In this document: piece after piece, positions 12,758-23,144 of the stretch
How the letters are laid out: every line of letters begins with the position of its first letter
Numbering within the stretch: position 1 is the first letter of the stretch
Assembly: GCA_041390745.1 (NCBI GenBank)
Contig: JAWKPJ010000001.1
Coordinates: 355,322 to 419,321 of the forward strand
Length of the DNA stretch: 64,000 bases
Direction of reading: 5' to 3'
Source of the DNA: Thermomicrobiales bacterium
Lineage (GTDB): Bacteria; Chloroflexota; Chloroflexia; Thermomicrobiales; UBA6265
Notes under the pieces: model-generated
Seen by the model: only the letters and a program-made list of their open reading frames with translations
Database searches by the model: none
What the model was told of the DNA's origin: nothing
Position numbers and translations under genes: made by a program

Positions 12758-15271
12758 TCAAACTGGTCGCTCACGTGGGGGCTCCAACAGCCCCTGGGCC
12801 AGCGTGAGAACCGGCACGAGGCCCAGGTTTCGACCACGCTCTGCCGCAACCGCGAACTCCGTGCCGGGCATGGCCGCCCGCAGCGACTCGACCAGCGCGG
12901 CGCACTCTGCCGCGCCGAGCACACTGGCTGGGCCAACCACCTGCTCCCGCAAGGCGGCCGCCGCCGCAAGCAGCGTGACTGCCGAATCAGCTGCCCTGGT
13001 TGCCGCCGCGACTGCTGCGGCCACTTCAACACAGGCGGCCAGACCCTTCTGATCGCCACTACGCTGCCAGTGACGCAGACTCTCGCGCAGCCAGGCGCGC
13101 GCGGCGCCGAGGTCGCCCTGCTGCAGCGCCACGCGGGCCAGCACCTGCTGGGCGCCAGCCCGCGCGGACCACGCGACATGCCCCTCGGTCAGCCCCAGCG
13201 CCTGAGCAGCATGGCGCGCGGCCTCGTCCAGCTTGCCCTGCCAGCGTTGCGCCACCGCAATGTTGCAGAGGACAGCCGCCCGGTCGCGGGCAGCGGTATC
13301 CGCCGCTGCCGGTCGCAGCGCCGCTGCAAACCGCGCTTCCGCCAGGACAGCGTCGCCCCGGTCCAGCGCCACCATCCCAAGGACCGCGTGAGAGGCGAAG
13401 GCCGCCCAGGTTTCGTCGAACTCCTCGAAGACCTCCAGGGAGCGCGCTATCTCCGCCTCCGCTTCGGCCGCCCGGCCAAGTCCCTGTGCGATGTTCCCGC
13501 GCACGAACCCCACGAACGCGATCTCGCGCGCATCCCCGCAGGCTGCCGCCAACCGGCCAGCCTCCGCAACGTGGCGCCCGGCGCGCTCGAACTCCCCGAG
13601 GTTGGTCGCGATCCAGGCAGCGTGCCGCGCCAGCCGGCCGCGCAAAAGATCCTGCTCGACATGGCGGTCCAGCGCGACCTCGCACTGCGCCAAACCTTCA
13701 GCGCCGTAGCCACAGAGTGCCCAGAAACTCCCGAGCGTATCCAGCAGGCGCACGGCTCCCGGCAGATCATTGGCGTGCAACCAGCGCAACGCGGCTCTCA
13801 GGTTCGGCAGATCGCGCTCGAGGCGGCGCAGTCGCGCATCGAACCCCGCGTCTCGCCGCCAGAGGTGGGCCGTCTCGGCGGCGTGCTGCATTGCCGCCGC
13901 GTGCTCCGCCTCCACTCGCTCGCGCACCGGGCTGGCCTGGAGACGGCTGGCGGCAACCACGCGAATCGTTTCCAGCAGCCGATAGCGAGGCTCGTCCGCG
14001 GCAGCGTCCTCCCGCTGCACCAGGTTTCGCTGAATGAGCGTTCCCAGCAGCGCCAGCGCGTCTGCCGCTGCGCCACCCCGGCCACTGGCGCTTTCCGCTG
14101 CCGCCCAGATCTGCTGCGCGGCCTCCAGCGAAAAGCTGCCTTCAAACACGCCCACAGCGTGGAACATGCGCCGCTCTGCGGCAGACAGCAGGCCCTCGCT
14201 CCAGGCAACGACGTTATCGAGCGTCCGCTGGCGCTCCGGAAGATCGCGCAGCATGCCTGGCAATGGCGAGCGTGCCTCCAGCCGTCGCACGAGCATGGCT
14301 GGCGAGTGCGCCGCCGTGAGGGAGGCCGCCAACTCGAGAGCGAGCGGGAGCCCATCCAACTGCTGGCAAAGCCATGCCACGTCCTGTGCGTTGTGCTCCG
14401 TTACCTCGAAGCCAGGATCGACGGCCCGGGCGCGATCGGCAAACAGGCGCACCGCCGGGAAGATCAAGGCTTCCCCGGCGGATACAGCGGCAGGTTCCGG
14501 CGCCGGCAACGGCGCAACCGGCAGGCAGCGTTCGGCCCGCAACAGCAGAGGTTCGCGGCTGGTGACGAGCCAGGCGACAGCAGGCAGCAGCGCCGCGAGC
14601 TGCGCAATTACCGGAGCCGCATCAATCACTTGCTCGAAGTTGTCCAGCAGGAGACACAGCCGCTGCTCCAGCAAGCTCCGGGCAATCGTCTCCGGCGTCT
14701 GATGCCCGGGCGATGCTGCCCGGCCCAGCGCAGCCGCCACCGCCGGCAACACCTGTTGCGCGTCCTGCTCCGGCGCGAGATCGACAAACACCACCCCGTC
14801 CGGGAAGCGCTGCGTCACCGCGTCATCGTGCGCCAGGGCGAGCGCAAGCCGCGTCTTGCCGGACCCGCCCGGACCGGTCAGCGTGATGACGCCCGGTGTG
14901 GGCTCCAGGAGCCAGCCGCGCAGGCGCTCTGTCTCGTCAGCGCGGCCAAGGAGCGGCCCCGCAGGCAACGGCGCGCGGCTCACTGCGGGCATGACGGATG
15001 TCGCCCGTGAGGAACTGGCGGACGGCGACAAGGCACGCGCCGCCAACAGCAGCGCGGCGCGCTCCTCGGGAGTCACCGCCAGAGCCGCAAGCAGCCGCTG
15101 CACGGTCTCTCGCTGCGGCCGGCCCCGCGCCCCGCGCTCCAGGTCACTCAGCCCACGCACGCTCAGCCCGGCCCGCTCCGCCAGCTCGGCCTGCGTCAGG
15201 CCGCCGGCAAGGCGCCGGGCGCGGAGCAGGTCGCCGAAACTGCTGTCGAGGGGGAAGAGATCTGGCGGCAT
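12758..15271 (-). CDS. XRE-family HTH STAND regulator (N-terminal HTH_XRE + NB-ARC-like ATPase + TPR)
   Basis: N-terminal LRARRLAGGLTQAELAERAGLSVRGLSDLERG (XRE HTH). P-loop LTGPGGSGKTRLALALA, LLLDNFEQVIDAAP, long TPR/helical C-terminus. Paralogous core to the 2375-4993 gene. Confidence 0.85.
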   Translation of the reverse strand: MPPDLFPLDSSFGDLLRARRLAGGLTQAELAERAGLSVRGLSDLERGARGRPQRETVQRLLAALAVTPEERAALLLAARALSPSASSSRATSVMPAVSRAPLPAGPLLGRADETERLRGWLLEPTPGVITLTGPGGSGKTRLALALAHDDAVTQRFPDGVVFVDLAPEQDAQQVLPAVAAALGRAASPGHQTPETIARSLLEQRLCLLLDNFEQVIDAAPVIAQLAALLPAVAWLVTSREPLLLRAERCLPVAPLPAPEPAAVSAGEALIFPAVRLFADRARAVDPGFEVTEHNAQDVAWLCQQLDGLPLALELAASLTAAHSPAMLVRRLEARSPLPGMLRDLPERQRTLDNVVAWSEGLLSAAERRMFHAVGVFEGSFSLEAAQQIWAAAESASGRGGAAADALALLGTLIQRNLVQREDAAADEPRYRLLETIRVVAASRLQASPVRERVEAEHAAAMQHAAETAHLWRRDAGFDARLRRLERDLPNLRAALRWLHANDLPGAVRLLDTLGSFWALCGYGAEGLAQCEVALDRHVEQDLLRGRLARHAAWIATNLGEFERAGRHVAEAGRLAAACGDAREIAFVGFVRGNIAQGLGRAAEAEAEIARSLEVFEEFDETWAAFASHAVLGMVALDRGDAVLAEARFAAALRPAAADTAARDRAAVLCNIAVAQRWQGKLDEAARHAAQALGLTEGHVAWSARAGAQQVLARVALQQGDLGAARAWLRESLRHWQRSGDQKGLAACVEVAAAVAAATRAADSAVTLLAAAAALREQVVGPASVLGAAECAALVESLRAAMPGTEFAVAAERGRNLGLVPVLTLAQGLLEPPRERPV

Positions 15272-16168: not shown

Positions 16169-18865
16169 ATGTCCCGCCACGCTGCCCCTCCGAGCGACCT
16201 CCAGGACATCGCCGAGCCGAATGGCGCGGAGCCACATCAGGACCGGTCCTCGCTGGTCCCCTCTCGCCGGCAGTACCTCGACCTGAAGGCGCAACACCCC
16301 GAAGCCATCCTGCTCTACCGCCTCGGGGACTTCTACGAGACGTTCGATGAGGACGCCCGCACCCTCGCTCGCGACGCGCGAGTGGCCCTCACCACCCGCT
16401 CCTTTGGCCGCTCTGGCCGCTCCCCGATGGCGGGCATTCCCCACCACGCGCTGAACCACTACCTCGCCCGGTTGCTGGCTGCCGGACACACGGTCGCCAT
16501 CGCCGAGCAGATGACCCCGCCTGGCAAGGGCCTCGTCGAACGCGCCGTCACCCGCGTTCTCTCTCCCGGCACCGTGTCGGACCCTGCGCTGCTCCCAGCC
16601 GGGGAGAGCCGCTACCTGGCGGCGCTGCATCACCACGGCGAAGCCTGGGGCCTGGCCTGGGTCGATGTCAGCACGGGCGAGTTTGCGGTCGCGGAGTTCA
16701 GCGGCGAGGGCGCCCCCGCGCGCCTGGCCGAAGAGGTGGCGCGCATTAACCCTGCGGAAACCCTGATCCCGGACGACGCGCCCGAGCCGCAAGGGAACAT
16801 CCCGCCCGGCCACCTGACGCGGCTGGAGACCTGGCGCTGGGAGCCGGGCCGTGGTGGCGACCTGCTGTGCACGCAGTTTCGAATCCACTCGCTGGCCGGG
16901 TTCGGCTGCGCTGCCATGCCCGCCGCCATCGGCGCGGCGGGCGCAATTCTTGGCTACCTGGAGCGAACCAACCCCGCCCTGCTCGTGCTGCTGACCGGCC
17001 TCCGCGTCGAGCAGCCGGGCCGCTGGGTCGGGCTGGACGCCGCCACCCGGCGCAACCTGGAACTCACGCGCTCCCTCGGCACCGGCGGCTCACGCGGCAG
17101 CCTGCTCGGTGTGCTCGACCTGACCCGGACGGCCATGGGAGCACGCGCCCTGCGGCGGCTCGTGACCCAGCCACTGCAGGACCTGGCAGAGATCGAGCGC
17201 CGGCAGCAAATCGTTACCACGCTTGTGCATGCGCCAACCGCCCGTGCCTCAGTGCGGGACGCGCTGGCCGCCGTCGGCGACCTGGAGCGGCTGGTTGGCC
17301 GCATTGCCGACCGCACTGCCACCGCCCGCGAGTTCGTCACACTCGCCTCTGCCCTGCACCGCCTCCCCGTGATCGCGGAGCTGCTGGCGCCCTCAGGTTT
17401 ACGCCATGCGTGCGGCGCAGATTGCGCGGATATCGCGGCCCTGCTCGACGACGCGGTGGCCGAAGACCACACCGGCGCGGCTGCCATCCGCCCTGGCTTC
17501 GCCCCGGACCTCGACGCGGCCCACGCCGCCGTGCGCGAAACGCGGGAGTGGCTCGCCTCGCTGGAAGCGCGCGAGCGAGAGCGCACGGGCATTCGCTCCC
17601 TCAAGGTCGGCTTCAACAAGGTTTTCGGGTACTACATCGAAATCACCCGCGCCAACCTGGCCCTCACCCCCGCCGACTACACGCGCAAGCAAACCATCGC
17701 CAACGGCGAGCGCTTTATCACCGGACCCCTCAAGGACGCCGAAGCGCGAGTGCTGGCTGCAGACGAAGAGATTGCGGCTCGGGAGCGCGCCGCCCTCCAC
17801 AGACTGAGCGCCCTGGTCACGGAGGAAGCGGGCCGCCTTTCCGCCACCGCCCGCGCCCTGGCCGAACTGGACGCGCTGCTCTCGCTGGCGGAAGTCGCCG
17901 CCCGCAACGACTGGAGCGCGCCAATTCTGGATGATGGCGACCTCCTGGCGATCAGCGGCGGGCGCCACCCGGTGGTGGAAGCCCACCTCAGCGGAGAGCC
18001 CTTCATCCCGAACGATTGCCGCCTCGGCGGTGACGGCCCGCGTCAGGCTGTCGTCACCGGGCCGAACATGGGCGGCAAATCGACCTATCTCCGGCAGGTG
18101 GCAGTCATCGCACTGCTGGCGCAGATCGGCTCCTGGGTCCCCGCCGCCCACGCTCGGGTCGGCCTCGTGGACCGCATTTTCACCCGCGTTGGCGCCCAGG
18201 ATGATCTGGCGCGCGGCCACTCCACGTTCATGGCCGAGATGGTTGAAACCGCCGCCATCCTGCATCAGGCCACCTCTCGCTCCCTGCTCATCCTCGATGA
18301 GGTTGGCCGGGGCACCAGCACCGATGACGGCCTCGCTATCGCTCGCGCCACCCTGGAGGACATCAGCCAGCGCATCGGCGCGCGCGCCCTCTTCGCCACG
18401 CACTATCTGGAGCTGACCAGCATCAGCGAGAACCTGCCTGCCATCACCAACCTGCATGTTGCCGCCCTGGAGCGCGACGGCCGCGTGGTGTTCCTGTACG
18501 CCGTACAACCCGGCGCCGCCGACCGCGCCTACGGCGTGCAGGTCGCGCGCCTCGCTGGTCTCCCACCCTGGGTCGCCGACCGCGCCGACATCCTGCTGCG
18601 TGCTTCCCAACGAGAAGCACCCGCCATCCTGCCGCCACCCCCGGTCACGCCAACACCACCTCTCGCGCTCTGCGAGGACCGCGCACCCTGGCTGGAGCCC
18701 GCACCTCCGTCCGAGCCGACACCCGCCGACCAGCTGGCCGCCGCCCTCCTGGCCCTCGACCTGGACAGGGTGACCGCGCGAGAGGCGCTGCAGTGGATGT
18801 GGGAGCATCAGGACTTGCTTCGCTCACGAGATACAGCGGCAACTGATGACGCTTTCGGTGACTGA
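16169..18865 (+). CDS. mutS: DNA mismatch repair protein MutS
   Basis: 898 aa. N-terminal mismatch-binding ILLYRLGDFYETFDEDA, Walker A GPNMGGKSTYLRQ, DE motif LLILDEVGRGTSTDDG, HTH ...YGVQVARLAGLP. Confidence 0.95.
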   Translation: MSRHAAPPSDLQDIAEPNGAEPHQDRSSLVPSRRQYLDLKAQHPEAILLYRLGDFYETFDEDARTLARDARVALTTRSFGRSGRSPMAGIPHHALNHYLARLLAAGHTVAIAEQMTPPGKGLVERAVTRVLSPGTVSDPALLPAGESRYLAALHHHGEAWGLAWVDVSTGEFAVAEFSGEGAPARLAEEVARINPAETLIPDDAPEPQGNIPPGHLTRLETWRWEPGRGGDLLCTQFRIHSLAGFGCAAMPAAIGAAGAILGYLERTNPALLVLLTGLRVEQPGRWVGLDAATRRNLELTRSLGTGGSRGSLLGVLDLTRTAMGARALRRLVTQPLQDLAEIERRQQIVTTLVHAPTARASVRDALAAVGDLERLVGRIADRTATAREFVTLASALHRLPVIAELLAPSGLRHACGADCADIAALLDDAVAEDHTGAAAIRPGFAPDLDAAHAAVRETREWLASLEARERERTGIRSLKVGFNKVFGYYIEITRANLALTPADYTRKQTIANGERFITGPLKDAEARVLAADEEIAARERAALHRLSALVTEEAGRLSATARALAELDALLSLAEVAARNDWSAPILDDGDLLAISGGRHPVVEAHLSGEPFIPNDCRLGGDGPRQAVVTGPNMGGKSTYLRQVAVIALLAQIGSWVPAAHARVGLVDRIFTRVGAQDDLARGHSTFMAEMVETAAILHQATSRSLLILDEVGRGTSTDDGLAIARATLEDISQRIGARALFATHYLELTSISENLPAITNLHVAALERDGRVVFLYAVQPGAADRAYGVQVARLAGLPPWVADRADILLRASQREAPAILPPPPVTPTPPLALCEDRAPWLEPAPPSEPTPADQLAAALLALDLDRVTAREALQWMWEHQDLLRSRDTAATDDAFGD

Positions 18866-19760
18866 ACGCCGCATCACCCTCCCCCGCATCGAGACCGCCG
18901 CGGCAGCCATTGACCCCGTGTTCCTCCACACCCCCCAGTGGGTCTGCGAGCCGCTGGCGGATGACCTCGGCGTACGGGTGCTGCTGAAGGTGGAGGTGCT
19001 GAACCCGATTCGCTCCTTTGAGGGACGCGGCGCGGATTGGCTGGTGCAGAACCTGCCGCACGGCGCGGAAATCGTGTGCGCCTCGGCCGGGAACTTCGGC
19101 CGGGCCAGAGCGTTCGCCGCCCGGGCACGCGGGGCGCCGCTCATCATTCACGCGGAGCCAGGACGGCAAACCCGCTCCAAATCGAGCGCATGCGGGCGCC
19201 GGGCGCACCTGTGGTCCTGGCCGGCGCCTGCTTCGACCCGCCAAGGCAATTGGCCAGGCCGAAGCGGCACAGCGCAGCGTGCGCTTCAACGAGGACAACC
19301 GCGACCCGGAGCCGGCTGAATGCGCGGGCACGATGGCGCTGGGGGTTGGCAACCTGCCAGGGCCAGCCCGATAGGCGCTTCATGCCGCCTGGCAACGGCG
19401 CCATGCTGGCCGGGTCGCTACTATCACCTGAGTCCAGCTGACCCCCACGCGAGTGACTGCGGCGGTGGCGGCCATGCCGCCCACAATGGCAGAACCGCGT
19501 CAACGTGAAAAGCCCGTCACGCATTGCCACCATCGCGGGTGGTATTGGCGTGCGCAGTCAGGCGCCGGCGGCCGGCTGCGCACGCCGGCCGGGTCAATGA
19601 CGACCTCCCTGGGCCTGACAGCCGCATCCTTACCGCCATCAAGCTGCTGCACCCGCACACCGGCGTCGTCGCGGAGCCGTCGGAAATGACCGGGCTCGCG
19701 AGGTTCAGGCAGGTGTCATCCTGCCTGCACGGGCATGGCATCGCCACCATCGTCAGGGGG
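18846..19760 (+). pseudogene. Threonine/serine dehydratase-like fold-type II PLP enzyme, multiply frameshifted (pseudogene)
   Basis: Recognisable TD/DsdA-like segments lie in three different frames: TPQWVCEPLADDLGVRVLLKVEVLNPIRSFEGRGA (PLP-Lys region), then ...LQIERMRAPGAPVVLAGACFD, then ...GTMALGV, DCGGGGHAA (Gly-rich loop), ...IKLLHPHTGVVAEPS. At least three frame changes. Confidence 0.6.
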
Positions 19761-19855
19761 AAACCTGACGTTCGCGCAAATGCGAGAATGGCGGCGCGAC
19801 CAGACAGAATGAGCAGGTTGAGGACAACAGAAGGATCGGCAACGTGGCGCAGGCA

Positions 19856-20731
19856 ATGCAGGGCGCGGCCTACCTGAACGGCAAGTACGTCCCGGCGAGC
19901 GAGGCAAACGTCTCCATTTTCGACAGTGGGTTCATCGGCGGGGTCTCTGTCTTCGATACCCTCGCCTGTTGGCAGGGCGGCCTCTTCAAGCTGCCGCAAC
20001 ACCGCGCCCGCTTCGAGCGCTCGGCCCACGCCGCCATGATCCCGTTGGCGGCGAGCGGCAACGATCTGGAGCAGATCATCATTGAAACAACCCGCCGCTC
20101 CGGGTGTCGCGAGGCCTATGTGCAGGCGATCGCCACGCGCGGCCGTCGCCCTACGCCCTCGGCGCCTTCGAACGAACCCACGCTGATCGTGTACGCCATC
20201 CCCTATGTCTCGCTCTGGCCCGAGGAGAAAGCTGAGCGCGGGATCAGCGTCATGATTCCCTCGATCCGCCAGTGGCCCCCTTCCACGCTGGACGCCAAGA
20301 TCAAGAACTTCAACCGCATGCACACCCACCTGGCCCGGTTGGAAGCCGAGCGTGCGGCAGCGGACGATATCGTGCTGCTCGATGATCGCGGCCTGCTGAC
20401 CGAGAGCCGTGGCTCCAACCTGTTCGTAGTGCGCGGCGGCACACTCTACACGCCGCGCTCCGGCATCCTGGAGGGGATCACCCGGCAGACCGTCTTCGAG
20501 ATCGCAGCGGAACTGGGCATCCCGGCTGCCGAACACGACCTCTCCCCCTACGACCTCTACACGGCAGAAGAGGCGTTCCTCTGCAGCACCGCCGGCGGCA
20601 TCTACCCCATCGCGGAGGCGGACGGCCGCTCCGTAGGGAGTGGCGGCACGGGCCCCATCACCCGCGCCCTGCGCGACCGCTACTGGGAGCGCCACCTCAG
20701 CGGGCCAGACGTGACGCCCGTTTTCTCCTGA
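19856..20731 (+). CDS. Class IV aminotransferase (branched-chain / D-amino-acid aminotransferase family)
   Basis: Fold-type IV features: YLNGKYVPASEANVSIFDSGFIGGVSVFDTL, catalytic-Lys region WPPSTLDAKIKNFNRMH, ...LLTESRGSNLFVV...GILEGITR. A GTG at 19844 is also possible. Confidence 0.85.
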   Translation: MQGAAYLNGKYVPASEANVSIFDSGFIGGVSVFDTLACWQGGLFKLPQHRARFERSAHAAMIPLAASGNDLEQIIIETTRRSGCREAYVQAIATRGRRPTPSAPSNEPTLIVYAIPYVSLWPEEKAERGISVMIPSIRQWPPSTLDAKIKNFNRMHTHLARLEAERAAADDIVLLDDRGLLTESRGSNLFVVRGGTLYTPRSGILEGITRQTVFEIAAELGIPAAEHDLSPYDLYTAEEAFLCSTAGGIYPIAEADGRSVGSGGTGPITRALRDRYWERHLSGPDVTPVFS

Positions 20732-20757
20732 CCGACAGCAACGTAGGAACACACCAT

Positions 20758-21771
20758 ATGAACCAGGCCATTGGGATCACCGATCTTCACAGCGATCTGC
20801 CGCTGGCGCTGCTGCACCGCCGCTTCGAGGGGGTCACTGGTTCCCTGCGCGACGAGTGGCTGCCCCGCTTGCGCGCCGGCGGCGTCGATACCGTCGTGTG
20901 CGCGATCTACATTGATTCCATCTTCCTGCCCGAAGGGGCGCTGCGCCGCGCAGTGCAACTGGTCGATGCGCTGCTGGAGGAAATCGCGCTCTGCCCGGAC
21001 GCAGTCGAGCTCGCCCTCACGACCGGTGACCTCGACCGCATCACAGGCGCAGGCAAGATCGCGGTGCTCCTGATGTTCGAGGGCGCCGAGCCGTTCGGGC
21101 AGGATCTGGCCGGGCTGCGGCTCTTTCACCGCCTTGGCATGCGCATCTGCAGCTTCGCCTGGATGCGCCGCACCGCCTACGGCGACGGCGCGTGGGAGAA
21201 CGACTCCCGCGGCGGCCTCACCCGCCTCGGTCACGCCGCCGTGGCGGAACTGAACCGGCTCGGCATCGTGACCGATGTCTCGCACTGCTCGGACCAGACC
21301 ACCTGGGATGTCCTCGCTGCGTCCACGAAGCCGGTGATCGCCAGCCACTCGAACGCGCGCGCTGTCGCCGACCAACCACGCAACCTGACCGACGACATGG
21401 CCAAGGCCATTGCTGCCTCTGGCGGGCTGGTCGGAATGGTCGCCGTCGCGGGCTACGTCGCCCCGGATACGGCCACCGTCTCCCGCTGGGTGGATCACTT
21501 CGATCACGTCGCGAACCTGGTCGGCGTCGACTACCTCGGTCTCGGCCTGGATTTCTTCACCGAGATCATGGCCATGAATATTTTTGGCGACGTCCCGGCC
21601 TGGGGCCCTCCAGGCGGGTTGGTCCCGCTGGAGTTCGCCGAGATGGCTACCTACCGCGATCTTCCCAATCTGACCGAGGAACTCCTGCGCCGCGGCTACA
21701 CCGACGACGATCTTCGCAAGATCTACGGCGGAAACTTCCGTCGTGTACTGAGGGCGGTGGAAACAGCCTGA
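20758..21771 (+). CDS. Membrane dipeptidase, peptidase family M19 (renal dipeptidase-like)
   Basis: ITDLHSDLP...VDTVVCAIY...VLLMFEGAEP...VTDVSHCSDQT...IASHSNARAV...VGVDYLGLGLDF, the canonical M19 metal-ligand blocks. Confidence 0.9.
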   Translation: MNQAIGITDLHSDLPLALLHRRFEGVTGSLRDEWLPRLRAGGVDTVVCAIYIDSIFLPEGALRRAVQLVDALLEEIALCPDAVELALTTGDLDRITGAGKIAVLLMFEGAEPFGQDLAGLRLFHRLGMRICSFAWMRRTAYGDGAWENDSRGGLTRLGHAAVAELNRLGIVTDVSHCSDQTTWDVLAASTKPVIASHSNARAVADQPRNLTDDMAKAIAASGGLVGMVAVAGYVAPDTATVSRWVDHFDHVANLVGVDYLGLGLDFFTEIMAMNIFGDVPAWGPPGGLVPLEFAEMATYRDLPNLTEELLRRGYTDDDLRKIYGGNFRRVLRAVETA

Positions 21772-22325
21772 CCCGGCAAACGGGCCGCGCAGAACACAGC
21801 CAGCCCCGGGAAACACGCCGTGTCTCCCGATGGTCGAGGCGCCATGCCTGCGTAGGTGGTGTGGGCACGGGGCTGTTTCTCCGGCAGCCTGTCGCGGACT
21901 CTGCCAGAGCGCGTCGACAGCAAAGTCACCGCTGATCGCCATGCCCTCGAAGCTTCGGCTGGAACTGCGCTGGTTGTCGAAGGCCGTCAGCACAGCCGCC
22001 GCCCGGCGCCCGCGCTCAACGGCGCCTCGCCATCGGTGACGAACAAGGTCGCAATGCGAGTGTCGCGAAGCCAGTCACCGGGAACGTGCCGTGCGTCCAA
22101 CGATCACCAGCCGCTCCGCCACCCGGAGCAAGCAGGCTGTTGGCGCAGTGGAGAGGTCCGCAGCTGCCCCCTGGCCAGCGCCGGAAGCGCCGCGTGGTCT
22201 CCCTATGAGGGTGCTACAGGCCACATCGGCGGTACCCTTCCCGCAGATCGCGCCTGGCTCTGCGACGGCTGGAGGCCAGGACACAGGCTACCGGGCCAGC
22301 CGGTAGCAGGAGCAGACGCCAGCGC

Positions 22326-23144
22326 ATGTCCTCCACCATGCCTCTCCGGACCCCCACCTTCGCTATCGGTGATATCCATGGTCAGTACGAAAAGGTCACC
22401 CACGATCTGCGGGAGGCAGCGTTGCTCTCCAGCGACTTGCACTGGGCCGGCGCCGACAGCGCCCTCTGGCTGATTGGCGACCTTGTAGATCGCGGTCCAG
22501 ACGGCATCAAGGTCATTGACCTCGCCATGCGCCTCCAACGGGAGGCAGCCGCGGCGGGCGGGAGCACCACCACCCTCATCGGAAACCACGATATCCTGCT
22601 CCTGGCGGCCTATCACTTCGGGGACTGGCCGCGCAAACGGCGAGCGGAATCATTCACCGAGATCTGGGAACGCAACGGCGGAAACCCCGAGGATCTGGAC
22701 CTTCTGAACGGCTCGCAAGTGGCCTGGCTCTCCAACCTGCCGGCCATGGCGCACTGCGGACCCTACCTGCTCACCCACGGCGACACCATGCTCTACACCC
22801 GCTACGGGCGAACCGTGGCGGACCTCAACCAGAACATTCAGGACTTGCGGCACACCATGGATCCCGTGGCGTGGTATCGCCTCCTCAGCGAGTTCAGTGA
22901 GCACCGCGTGTTTACCGGGTCCACTGGCCCCAGGCGCGCCCGCGAGTTTCTGCGCCATTTCGGCGGGCAACGCATTGTGCATGGGCACACGCCCGTCAGC
23001 CGCATTACGGGCGAGAATCCGGCGCAGGTCACAGGTCCGCTGATCTACGCGGACGGTCTCTGCATCGACGTCGATGGCGGCATGTATCTCGGCGGACCGG
23101 GGTTCGTCTACCGCCTGCCTGATCCTGTCCCGGACGAGGCGTAG
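22326..23144 (+). CDS. Metallophosphoesterase (PPP family; ApaH/PrpE-like)
   Basis: PPP motifs GDIHGQ, GDLVDRGPDG, GNHD, ...HGHTP. Confidence 0.8.
   Translation: MSSTMPLRTPTFAIGDIHGQYEKVTHDLREAALLSSDLHWAGADSALWLIGDLVDRGPDGIKVIDLAMRLQREAAAAGGSTTTLIGNHDILLLAAYHFGDWPRKRRAESFTEIWERNGGNPEDLDLLNGSQVAWLSNLPAMAHCGPYLLTHGDTMLYTRYGRTVADLNQNIQDLRHTMDPVAWYRLLSEFSEHRVFTGSTGPRRAREFLRHFGGQRIVHGHTPVSRITGENPAQVTGPLIYADGLCIDVDGGMYLGGPGFVYRLPDPVPDEA

What the first reader, a model, noticed from the sequence alone, without database searches (positions are those of the whole stretch)
18846..19760. Heavily decayed threonine/serine (or D-serine) dehydratase-like PLP gene immediately upstream of the aminotransferase-dipeptidase pair
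Fold-type II PLP enzyme segments appear in at least three frames over about 900 bp. These include the PLP-lysine region (...NPIRSFEGRGA), the catalytic-domain helix (LQIERMRAPGAPVVLAGACFD) and the glycine-rich loop (DCGGGG). Several frame changes, not one, argue for a genuine old pseudogene instead of a single read error. It overlaps the 3' end of mutS by 20 bp. It directly precedes a class IV aminotransferase and an M19 dipeptidase, so this may once have been a three-gene amino-acid catabolic unit.
Basis: seen in the sequence. Interest (0 to 1): 0.5.

Follow-up and report, generated by a model that had tools for sequence, protein, structure and literature searches.

The report
Dead threonine-dehydratase-like gene after mutS
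This is the decayed remnant of a vitamin-B6-dependent amino-acid dehydratase gene that is intact in sister species; it is a true, fairly old gene loss and not a sequencing error, which makes it an ordinary pseudogene.

Summary
Window 18846-19803 (+) is the wreck of a single-domain fold-type II PLP enzyme gene of the threonine/serine dehydratase family.

Five sister Thermomicrobiales genomes carry an intact 322-327 aa ortholog at the same position (DinB-like, mutS, PALP, class IV aminotransferase, M19 dipeptidase).

Against those orthologs, the window copy has these lesions:
- seven frame-breaking indels (+2, -1, +1, -1, -8, -2, -2)
- a TGA that remains after the frames are corrected
- loss of the PLP-binding lysine (AAG to GAG)
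- loss of the ancestral stop codon

It is not an assembly artefact. Three independently assembled contigs from other samples carry the same indels and differ only by point changes.

Selection is relaxed on this gene, and only in this lineage:
- 153 lineage-specific substitutions, spread 43/54/56 over the codon positions, against 55 (11/7/37) in the sister lineage (p = 7e-12).
- Flanking genes show equal rates and a third-position bias.
- Within the species, SNP density is 1.3-3.1% here against 0.1-0.6% in the neighbouring genes.

Homology runs about 40 bp past 19760. D-serine dehydratase is not supported.

The three-gene-unit idea has moderate support from gene order. This is an ordinary finding of low interest.

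The parts
16169..18865 (+). mutS, intact (898 aa). Its last 20 bp overlap the ancestral start of the pseudogene.
   Evidence: Pfam MutS_I-V. 89% aa identity to L001 and L074 mutS. Lineage-specific changes are third-position biased, 32/26/126.
18846..19803 (+). Whole pseudogene: remnant of a 322-codon fold-type II PLP enzyme gene of the threonine/serine dehydratase family. 19801-19803 is the former stop codon, now CAG.
   Evidence: Stitched translation matches PF00291 at 6.7e-33. Homologs at E 4.9e-115. Frameshift-aware alignment to the L001 ortholog gives 65% identity over 315 aligned codons. Syntenic intact orthologs in L001, L002, L011, L073, L074.
18846..19154 (+). Segment 1: codons 1-103, still in frame with the ancestral ATG. 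It forms the first part of a residual 157-aa ORF (18846-19319).
   Evidence: 77% identity to L001 residues 1-108. PF00291 at 1.5e-15 for the 157-aa ORF. Less decayed than the rest.
19020..19022 (+). Former PLP Schiff-base lysine codon. It is now GAG (Glu) in the window and GCG (Ala) in strain L071.
   Evidence: All five intact orthologs have AAG in the SFKGRGA motif. The SNP at 19021 appears.
19155..19156 (+). Frameshift 1: 2-nt insertion after ortholog codon 103.
   Evidence: Shared with L071.
19237..19238 (+). Frameshift 2: 1-nt deletion at ortholog codon 131.
   Evidence: Shared with L071.
19341..19342 (+). Frameshift 3: 1-nt insertion after ortholog codon 165.
   Evidence: Shared with L071.
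19379..19414 (+). True remnant of the phosphate-binding glycine-rich loop (FMPPGNGAMLAG).
   Evidence: Aligns to L001 FVPLGNGAMLAG, which aligns to IlvA FVPVGGGGLVAG in PDB 8y1j.
19414..19415 (+). Frameshift 4: 1-nt deletion at ortholog codon 190.
   Evidence: Shared with L071.
19429..19431 (+). TGA stop that remains in frame after frame correction. The ortholog has an Arg codon (CGG/CGC) here.
19519..19525 (+). Frameshift 5: 8-nt deletion at ortholog codons 225-229.
   Evidence: Shared with L071.
19570..19574 (+). Frameshift 6: 2-nt deletion at ortholog codon 245-246.
   Evidence: Shared with L071.
19754..19755 (+). Frameshift 7: 2-nt deletion at ortholog codon 307, the Cys of the IICGGN motif.
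   Evidence: Shared with L071; no indel difference from L072 across this site.
19844..20731 (+). Class IV (fold-type IV) aminotransferase, intact and under purifying selection.
   Evidence: PF01063 at 6.6e-52. Lineage changes 4/4/31. Protein identical in L070, L071 and L072. Below all NCBIfam equivalog cut-offs; closest to the BCAT models.
20758..21771 (+). M19 dipeptidase, intact and under purifying selection.
   Evidence: PF01244 at 6.5e-92. Lineage changes 10/6/44.

Best explanation
Window 18846-19803 is a unitary (non-duplicated, in situ) pseudogene.

**Ancestral gene.** It encoded a single-domain, roughly 322-aa fold-type II PLP-dependent enzyme of the threonine/serine dehydratase (IlvA/TdcB/serine-racemase) superfamily. 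It was translationally coupled to mutS through a 20-nt overlap and followed by a class IV aminotransferase gene and an M19 dipeptidase gene.

**What happened.** In the lineage leading to this Thermomicrobiales species, the gene lost selective constraint. It then accumulated seven frame-breaking indels, a nonsense codon, replacement of the Schiff-base lysine, loss of its stop codon, and about three times as many substitutions as its sister lineage, spread evenly over the codon positions.

**Present state.** It now makes no functional enzyme. At most, a 157-aa lysine-less N-terminal fragment could be translated. The DNA survives as a roughly 1-kb neutral spacer between mutS and the aminotransferase and dipeptidase genes, which remain under selection.

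**Shown:** homology, synteny, the lesions, their reproducibility across independent assemblies, and relaxed selection.

**Inferred:**
- The ancestral reaction was PLP-dependent beta-elimination/deamination of a hydroxy-amino acid such as Thr or Ser to a 2-oxo acid plus ammonia.
- The gene worked together with the dipeptidase and the aminotransferase.
- It has been dead for roughly 80% of the branch since the split from the L001/L074 lineage.
For: **1. Family.** The stitched translation matches PF00291 at 6.7e-33 over profile positions 7-278 of 295. It finds 590 homologs, the best at E = 4.9e-115, several named threonine dehydratase.

**2. Intact syntenic orthologs.** L001, L002, L011, L073 and L074/L075 all carry an uninterrupted 969-nt reading frame at the same place after mutS.

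**3. Lesions.** Seven indels, a TGA, Lys to Glu, and stop loss. All are specific to the window lineage when compared with the five orthologs.

**4. Reproducibility.**
- L071 (Logan ERR15459718) has no indel difference from the window over 1786 bp.
- L070 (GCA_020432265.1) has one extra C, inserted after window 19441.
- L072 (DRR438476) has none over 294 bp.
- All three still differ from the window by 9-22 SNPs, so they are independent sequences.

**5. Relaxed selection between species.**
- Window-specific changes number 153, spread 43/54/56 over the codon positions. L001 has 55, spread 11/7/37. The Tajima relative-rate test gives p = 7e-12.
- DinB-like, mutS, AT4, M19 and the metallophosphoesterase gene have near-equal rates (p = 0.04-0.56) and a strong third-position bias.

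**6. Relaxed selection within the species.**
- SNP density is 1.3-3.1% in the pseudogene, 0.1-0.6% in AT4 and M19, and 2.35% in a non-coding spacer.
- The former lysine codon is itself polymorphic, Glu in some strains and Ala in another.

**7. No intact allele seen.** The best hit among 5.8 billion proteins is 66% identical, while the neighbouring aminotransferase has exact matches in three assemblies.

**8. No alternative feature.**
- No Rfam hit at E <= 1.
- No promoter-like site on either strand and no + strand terminator-like site in the scanned region 18500-22400.
- No Pfam hit for the antisense or leftover ORFs.
Against: - Expression was not tested. The 157-aa N-terminal ORF keeps the ancestral start, and gene callers annotate it (a 123-aa 'PALP' gene on L070).
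- That 5' third is less decayed than the rest. Its lineage changes are 8/8/19 by codon position, and it has 2 segregating sites against 28 (p = 0.0013). Some residual constraint there is not excluded.
- The ancestral substrate is unknown. The intact ortholog scores below the curated cut-off of every NCBIfam threonine/serine dehydratase model (best 217.7 against 317).
- Only 64 kb of the genome is visible, so compensation by a paralog cannot be checked.
Confidence: 0.95

Rival explanations
1. Sequencing or assembly artefact: the gene is intact in the organism, and the frame changes are indel errors in this assembly.
For: Multiple indels in a GC-rich region could in principle come from long-read errors. 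One relative from a long-read project (L008) shows its aminotransferase split into three tblastn pieces.
Against: - The same seven indels occur in L071, and the overlapping ones in L070 and L072. These were assembled independently from other samples and differ from the window by SNPs.
- All flanking genes in the window are uninterrupted.
- Indel errors would not produce a threefold excess of substitutions spread evenly over the codon positions.
- They would not produce a missense change at the catalytic lysine or a nonsense codon either.
Confidence: 0.01
2. Partly functional remnant: the 5' third (18846-19154, or the 157-aa ORF to 19319) is still under selection. It might act as a translated leader coupled to mutS that influences expression of mutS or of the downstream aminotransferase and dipeptidase genes, or as a truncated non-catalytic protein. 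Only the 3' two-thirds would be dead.
For: - The start codon, the 20-nt overlap with mutS and the first 103 codons are in frame.
- Lineage-specific changes there are 8/8/19 by codon position, against 8/15/9 and 27/31/28 downstream.
- Only 2 of 30 segregating sites fall in these 309 bp (Fisher p = 0.0013).
Against: - First- and second-position changes in this segment are still about five times those of the L001 lineage (16 against 3).
- The catalytic lysine codon lies in this segment and is polymorphic, Glu or Ala.
- The SNPs are clumped and come from only 2-4 strains, so the p-value is overstated.
- An N-terminal third of a PALP fold has no known independent function (from general knowledge of the fold).
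Confidence: 0.04
3. Recoding: the enzyme is still made through programmed ribosomal frameshifting or stop read-through.
For: None beyond the fact that homologous segments lie in three frames.
Against: - It would need seven shifts of different sizes (+2, -1, +1, -1, -8, -2, -2) plus read-through of a TGA.
- The product would lack the Schiff-base lysine.
- All orthologs are encoded in one frame.
- The codon-position pattern shows no coding constraint.
Confidence: 0.003

Closest known systems
Threonine ammonia-lyase catalytic domain (IlvA/TdcB; PDB 8y1j, 8zkv, 1tdj, 2gn0; NCBIfam NF004771 PRK06110 'threonine dehydratase')
   Same: The intact ortholog aligns over nearly its full length with the IlvA catalytic domain (E = 1.1e-40 to 8y1j). 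It carries the SFKGRGA lysine motif, the ASAGN motif and a loop at the position of the GGGG phosphate loop. The window remnant retains ASAGNFG and PPGNGAMLAG.
   Different: - The ortholog is single-domain (322-327 aa), too short to hold the C-terminal regulatory domain of the ~500-aa biosynthetic IlvA chains.
- It scores below the curated cut-off of every equivalog model (217.7 against 317 for the best).
- Its loop reads LGNGAM, not GGGG.
- The window copy itself is dead: no lysine, seven frameshifts and a stop.
Serine racemase / serine dehydratase-like fold-type II enzymes (PDB 5cvc, 3l6b, 1v71, 1pwe)
   Same: Similar length, single-domain architecture and the same fold family. E = 2.6e-34 to 5.4e-25 against the intact ortholog.
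   Different: These are weaker matches than IlvA. From my recollection of the family (not tested here), the ortholog has Ala where racemases carry the second catalytic Ser (ASAGN against SSGN). That would favour a dehydratase over a racemase.
Ordinary unitary bacterial pseudogenes (in situ decay by frameshifts and nonsense mutations, with intact orthologs in sister taxa)
   Same: All the hallmarks are present: a syntenic intact ortholog, multiple disabling lesions, loss of the codon-position bias, raised within-species polymorphism, and fixation across strains.
   Different: Nothing unusual apart from the uneven decay (the 5' third is better preserved) and its position inside an otherwise conserved gene string directly coupled to mutS.

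Membership tests
Pfam PALP (PF00291), fold-type II PLP-dependent enzymes | Significant profile match over most of the domain | tested here: met
   The stitched three-frame translation scores 114.7 bits (cut-off 35), E = 6.7e-33, profile positions 7-278 of 295.
Pfam PALP (PF00291), fold-type II PLP-dependent enzymes | Schiff-base lysine in the S-F-K-x-R-G motif | tested here: not met
   The window has SFEGRGA (GAG at 19020-19022) and strain L071 has GCG (Ala). Five intact orthologs have AAG.
Pfam PALP (PF00291), fold-type II PLP-dependent enzymes | One uninterrupted reading frame encoding the domain | tested here: not met
   Seven frame-breaking indels, one in-frame TGA, and loss of the stop codon.
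Threonine ammonia-lyase / threonine-serine dehydratase equivalogs (NCBIfam NF004771, NF005292, TIGR01127, NF006389 TdcB) | Score above the curated whole-protein cut-off (tested on the intact ortholog from L001) | tested here: not met
   Best scores are 217.7 against 317, 212.9 against 371, 206 against 378.75, and TdcB 154.1 against 453. The ancestral gene belongs to the superfamily but to no named equivalog.
D-serine ammonia-lyase (DsdA) | Best or significant match to DsdA models | tested here: not met
   No DsdA model is among the 25 best of the 34 NCBIfam families hit by the intact ortholog. All top hits are threonine or threonine/serine dehydratases.
Unitary pseudogene | Intact orthologs at the syntenic position in related genomes | tested here: met
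   L001, L002, L011, L073, L074 and L075 each have a 969-nt open frame directly after mutS.
Unitary pseudogene | Disabling lesions reproducible in independent data | tested here: met
   L070, L071 and L072 come from three other samples. They share the indels and differ by SNPs.
Unitary pseudogene | Relaxed selection relative to orthologs and neighbouring genes | tested here: met
   153 changes against 55, spread 43/54/56 against 11/7/37 over the codon positions, p = 7e-12. SNP density is 1.3-3.1% against 0.1-0.6%.
Unitary pseudogene | No functional product (no transcript-dependent or protein-dependent activity) | not testable with these tools
   Needs RNA-seq, proteomics or genetics.
Three-gene catabolic operon (PALP, Aminotran_4, Peptidase_M19) | Adjacency conserved in different genomic neighbourhoods | tested here: met
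   The trio lies next to mutS in L001, L002, L074 and L075. It lies without mutS in L078 (thrS side, ABC transporter downstream), L008 and L004. Exceptions are L073 (no M19), L076 (PALP alone), and L003 and L006 (aminotransferase alone).
Three-gene catabolic operon (PALP, Aminotran_4, Peptidase_M19) | Co-transcription and a shared pathway | not testable with these tools
   No + strand terminator or promoter consensus was found between the genes, but that scan is weak evidence. The substrates of all three enzymes are unknown.

The most novel reading that the evidence does not exclude
The still in-frame 5' third of the pseudogene (18846-19154, or the 157-aa ORF) is not neutral. It has been retained as a translated leader coupled to the mutS stop codon, or as a truncated non-catalytic protein, and it affects expression of mutS or of the downstream aminotransferase and dipeptidase genes. 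That would explain why it is markedly less polymorphic and less decayed than the 3' two-thirds.
Probability: 0.04. Interest if true: 0.35.

Novelty: new member of a known kind. Interest (0 to 1): 0.12.

Why it matters
Mainly for annotation and metabolic reconstruction.
- Gene callers report an N-terminal 'PALP' fragment here (a 123-aa gene on L070; a 157-aa ORF in the window). It should be flagged as a pseudogene and not counted as a threonine/serine dehydratase.
- The case shows that a Thermomicrobiales species dropped one member of a locally conserved PALP, class IV aminotransferase and M19 dipeptidase string and kept the other two under selection. The three genes are therefore not strictly interdependent.
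- It also provides about 1 kb of demonstrably neutral sequence for estimating mutation spectra in this uncultured lineage.
- It opens no long-standing question.

Tried and rejected
- **Assembly error.** Rejected because the indels are identical in three independent assemblies.
- **Programmed frameshifting.** Rejected because of the number and sizes of the shifts and the lost lysine.
- **Another function for the DNA.**
  - Rfam at E <= 1 found nothing.
  - The sigma-70 promoter and terminator scans found nothing on the + strand.
  - Antisense and leftover ORFs (18648-19352 -, 19147-19533 -, 19520-20752 -, 19524-19874 +) have no Pfam hit.
- **A paralog in the window.** tblastn with the intact ortholog found only the pseudogene pieces.
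- **More strains of the same species.**
  - Exact-product look-ups of the 157-aa ORF and of mutS found nothing.
  - Two metagenome DNA scans found nothing. One used the 8-nt deletion junction and the other a degenerate Lys-to-Glu motif.
- **Literature.**
  - The search for Thermomicrobiales with 'pseudogene' found no paper.
  - No listed title or abstract from the search on M19 dipeptidase, aminotransferase and D-amino acid concerned such a gene cluster. None was read in full.
- **Assigning a precise enzyme name to the ancestral gene or to the neighbouring aminotransferase.** All NCBIfam equivalog cut-offs are missed.
Full report
**Observation**

Translating 18780-19860 in the three forward frames shows recognisable fold-type II PLP-enzyme segments that jump between frames.
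- Joined by eye, they give a 326-aa sequence. It matches Pfam PALP (PF00291) at E = 6.7e-33 over profile positions 7-278 of 295.
- The longest residual ORF (18846-19319, 157 aa) matches only the first 87 profile positions.
- A search of 5.8 billion proteins with the stitched sequence returned 590 hits. The best were 322-327 aa proteins at E = 4.9e-115 to 1e-110, 62-66% identity and 98-99% coverage.
- Several of these are named threonine dehydratase or threonine/serine dehydratase, and several come from Thermomicrobiales MAGs.

**Intact orthologs in relatives**

Searching species-representative genomes with the neighbouring aminotransferase found close Thermomicrobiales relatives (L001, L002 and L011; 92-95% aa identity).
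- In L001 and L002 the order is DinB-like, mutS, a 327-aa uninterrupted PALP gene, aminotransferase, M19 dipeptidase, metallophosphoesterase. This matches the window.
- L011, L073, L074 and L075 add further intact copies at the same place.
- In L074 and L075 the PALP gene overlaps mutS by the same 20 nt.

**Lesions**

A frameshift-aware protein-to-DNA alignment against the L001 ortholog and a nucleotide alignment with five intact orthologs agree on the following:
- 2-nt insertion at 19155
- 1-nt deletion at about 19238
- 1-nt insertion at about 19342
- 1-nt deletion at about 19415
- 8-nt deletion at about 19520
- 2-nt deletion at about 19572
- 2-nt deletion at about 19755
- a TGA at 19429-19431 that stays in frame after correction
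- the ancestral stop changed from TAG to CAG at 19801-19803

All five orthologs have exactly 969 nt with no internal stop, so every lesion is specific to the window lineage. The Schiff-base lysine codon (AAG in all orthologs, motif SFKGRGA) is GAG (Glu) at 19020-19022. After frame correction the remnant is 65% identical to L001, against 89-94% for the flanking proteins.

**Not an assembly error**

The window's aminotransferase protein occurs, residue for residue, on three other contigs:
- L070, from NCBI MAG GCA_020432265.1
- L071, a Logan assembly of run ERR15459718
- L072, a Logan assembly of run DRR438476

These contigs compare with the window as follows:
- L071 covers the whole pseudogene and has no indel difference from the window over 1786 bp.
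- L070 has one extra C, inserted after window 19441.
- L072 has no indel difference over 294 bp.
- They differ from the window by 20, 22 and 9 positions (L070's count includes its extra C), so they are separate sequences.
- All seven indels are shared by the window and L071.
- The former lysine codon is GCG (Ala) in L071, so it is polymorphic within the species.
- No protein more than 66% identical to the stitched sequence exists in the protein collection, although exact copies of the neighbouring protein do.

**Relaxed selection**

Changes were assigned by parsimony on the window/L001/L002 trio.
- The PALP region has 153 window-specific changes, spread 43/54/56 over codon positions 1, 2 and 3.
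- L001 has 55 (11/7/37) and L002 has 86 (16/9/61).
- The relative-rate test of the window against L001 gives p = 7e-12.
- The same test on DinB-like, mutS, the aminotransferase, the dipeptidase and the metallophosphoesterase gives p = 0.04-0.56. In those genes, 61-79% of window-lineage changes fall at third positions.

Within the species, SNP density is 1.3-3.1% in the pseudogene, 2.35% in a non-coding spacer, and 0.1-0.6% in the aminotransferase and dipeptidase genes, where 13 of the 16 substitutions fall at third positions.

From the first- and second-position excess (97 observed; about 22 expected under constraint; about 112 if neutral throughout), I infer that the gene has been unconstrained for roughly 80% of the branch since the split from the L001/L074 lineage. 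This is a rough inference, not a measurement.

**What the ancestral gene was**

- The intact L001 ortholog hits many NCBIfam threonine and threonine/serine dehydratase models. It is below the curated cut-off of every one (best NF004771, 217.7 against 317). No D-serine dehydratase model is among the 25 best hits.
- Against solved structures, the best matches are IlvA catalytic domains (8y1j at 1.1e-40, then 8zkv and 1tdj). Serine racemases and TdcB follow.
- In that alignment the ortholog's FVPLGNGAMLAG lies opposite IlvA's FVPVGGGGLVAG. The glycine-rich loop of this subfamily is therefore LGNGAM.
- Its remnant in the window is FMPPGNGAMLAG at 19379-19414.
The homologous frame reads TRVTAAVAAMPPTMAE, opposite TRVVAVAASGAPAMVE.
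- I conclude that the ancestor was a single-domain dehydratase-type fold-type II PLP enzyme of unassigned substrate. A Thr/Ser-type beta-elimination is the most likely reaction, by family inference.

**The three-gene idea**

- PALP, Aminotran_4 and Peptidase_M19 are adjacent in the mutS-linked relatives.
- They are also adjacent in more distant Thermomicrobiales where mutS is not nearby: L078 (after thrS and hypothetical genes, before an ABC transporter), L008, and L004 with a 3-kb gap.
- This supports a conserved module.
- The module is not fixed. L073 lacks the dipeptidase, L076 has PALP alone, and L003, L006 and L007 have the aminotransferase without PALP within 6 kb.
- Aminotransferase homologs at 32-40% identity in other phyla have neither partner nearby.
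- In the window lineage the aminotransferase and the dipeptidase are clearly still under purifying selection, so they do not depend on the lost gene.

**Alternatives examined**

- No Rfam family matches 18500-20100 at E <= 1.
- No promoter-like site on either strand and no + strand terminator-like site is found in 18500-22400.
- The long antisense and leftover ORFs have no Pfam match.
- No second PALP homolog lies in the 64-kb window.

**One unexplained detail**

The 5' third (codons 1-103, still in frame with the ancestral ATG) is less decayed than the rest.
- Its lineage changes are 8/8/19, against 8/15/9 and 27/31/28 downstream.
- It holds 2 segregating sites, against 28 in the remaining 658 bp (Fisher p = 0.0013).
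- The SNPs are clumped and only 2-4 strains are available, so this may be chance or recombination structure.
- First- and second-position changes there are still five times those of the sister lineage, and the dead lysine codon lies in this segment.
- Attempts to find more strains failed.

**Verdict**

This is a real, species-wide, fairly old unitary pseudogene of a threonine/serine-dehydratase-family PLP enzyme.
- The corrections are three: the glycine-loop assignment, the end coordinate, and the fact that the cited lysine motif has lost its lysine.
- This is an ordinary kind of finding. Its value lies in annotation, and in showing that the PALP/aminotransferase/dipeptidase string can lose its first member.

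Noticed in passing
window 21772-22325, especially 21895-21993 (-): The 554-bp spacer between the M19 dipeptidase and the metallophosphoesterase gene holds a short relic of a phytase-like gene. That gene is intact at this place in relative L073. The tblastn match is 34 aa at 56% identity (E = 0.001), and blastn gives 72.7% over 150 nt (E = 1e-17). L001, L002 and L074 lack it, and L073 in turn lacks the dipeptidase. The locus shows several lineage-specific losses.
   Followed up: partly
window 18846-19154 against 19155-19812: Decay of the pseudogene is uneven. The in-frame 5' third has fewer first- and second-position changes and only 2 of 30 segregating sites (p = 0.0013, but the SNPs are clumped and the strains are few).
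   Followed up: partly
window 19020-19022: The former PLP-lysine codon is polymorphic within the species. It is GAG (Glu) in the window and L070, GCG (Ala) in L071, and AAG (Lys) in all five intact orthologs.
   Followed up: yes
window 19229-19230, 19247-19248, 19373-19374, 19381-19382, 19737-19738: Many between-strain differences are adjacent two-base changes (TG/GA, CA/TG twice, AG/GC, GG/AC). At three of the five pairs (19229-30, 19373-74, 19737-38) one strain keeps the state found in all five outgroups; at the two CA/TG pairs the outgroups vary at the second base. This could reflect multi-nucleotide mutation events, successive hits at hypermutable dinucleotides, or small recombination tracts.
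   Followed up: no
L008 5992-6930: In relative L008 (MAG MFD02840.bin.2.158), the class IV aminotransferase matches in three separate tblastn pieces (query residues 1-42, 28-210 and 211-294). The gene is therefore frame-broken there, through either sequencing errors in that assembly or an independent decay of the neighbouring gene.
   Followed up: no
window 12758-15271 (-): An 837-aa ORF lies upstream of the DinB-like gene. The gene at the same position in L074 and L075 (833 aa) carries HTH_3/HTH_31, NB-ARC/AAA_22 and TPR domains, so it looks like a STAND-type transcriptional regulator. It was not examined further.
   Followed up: no
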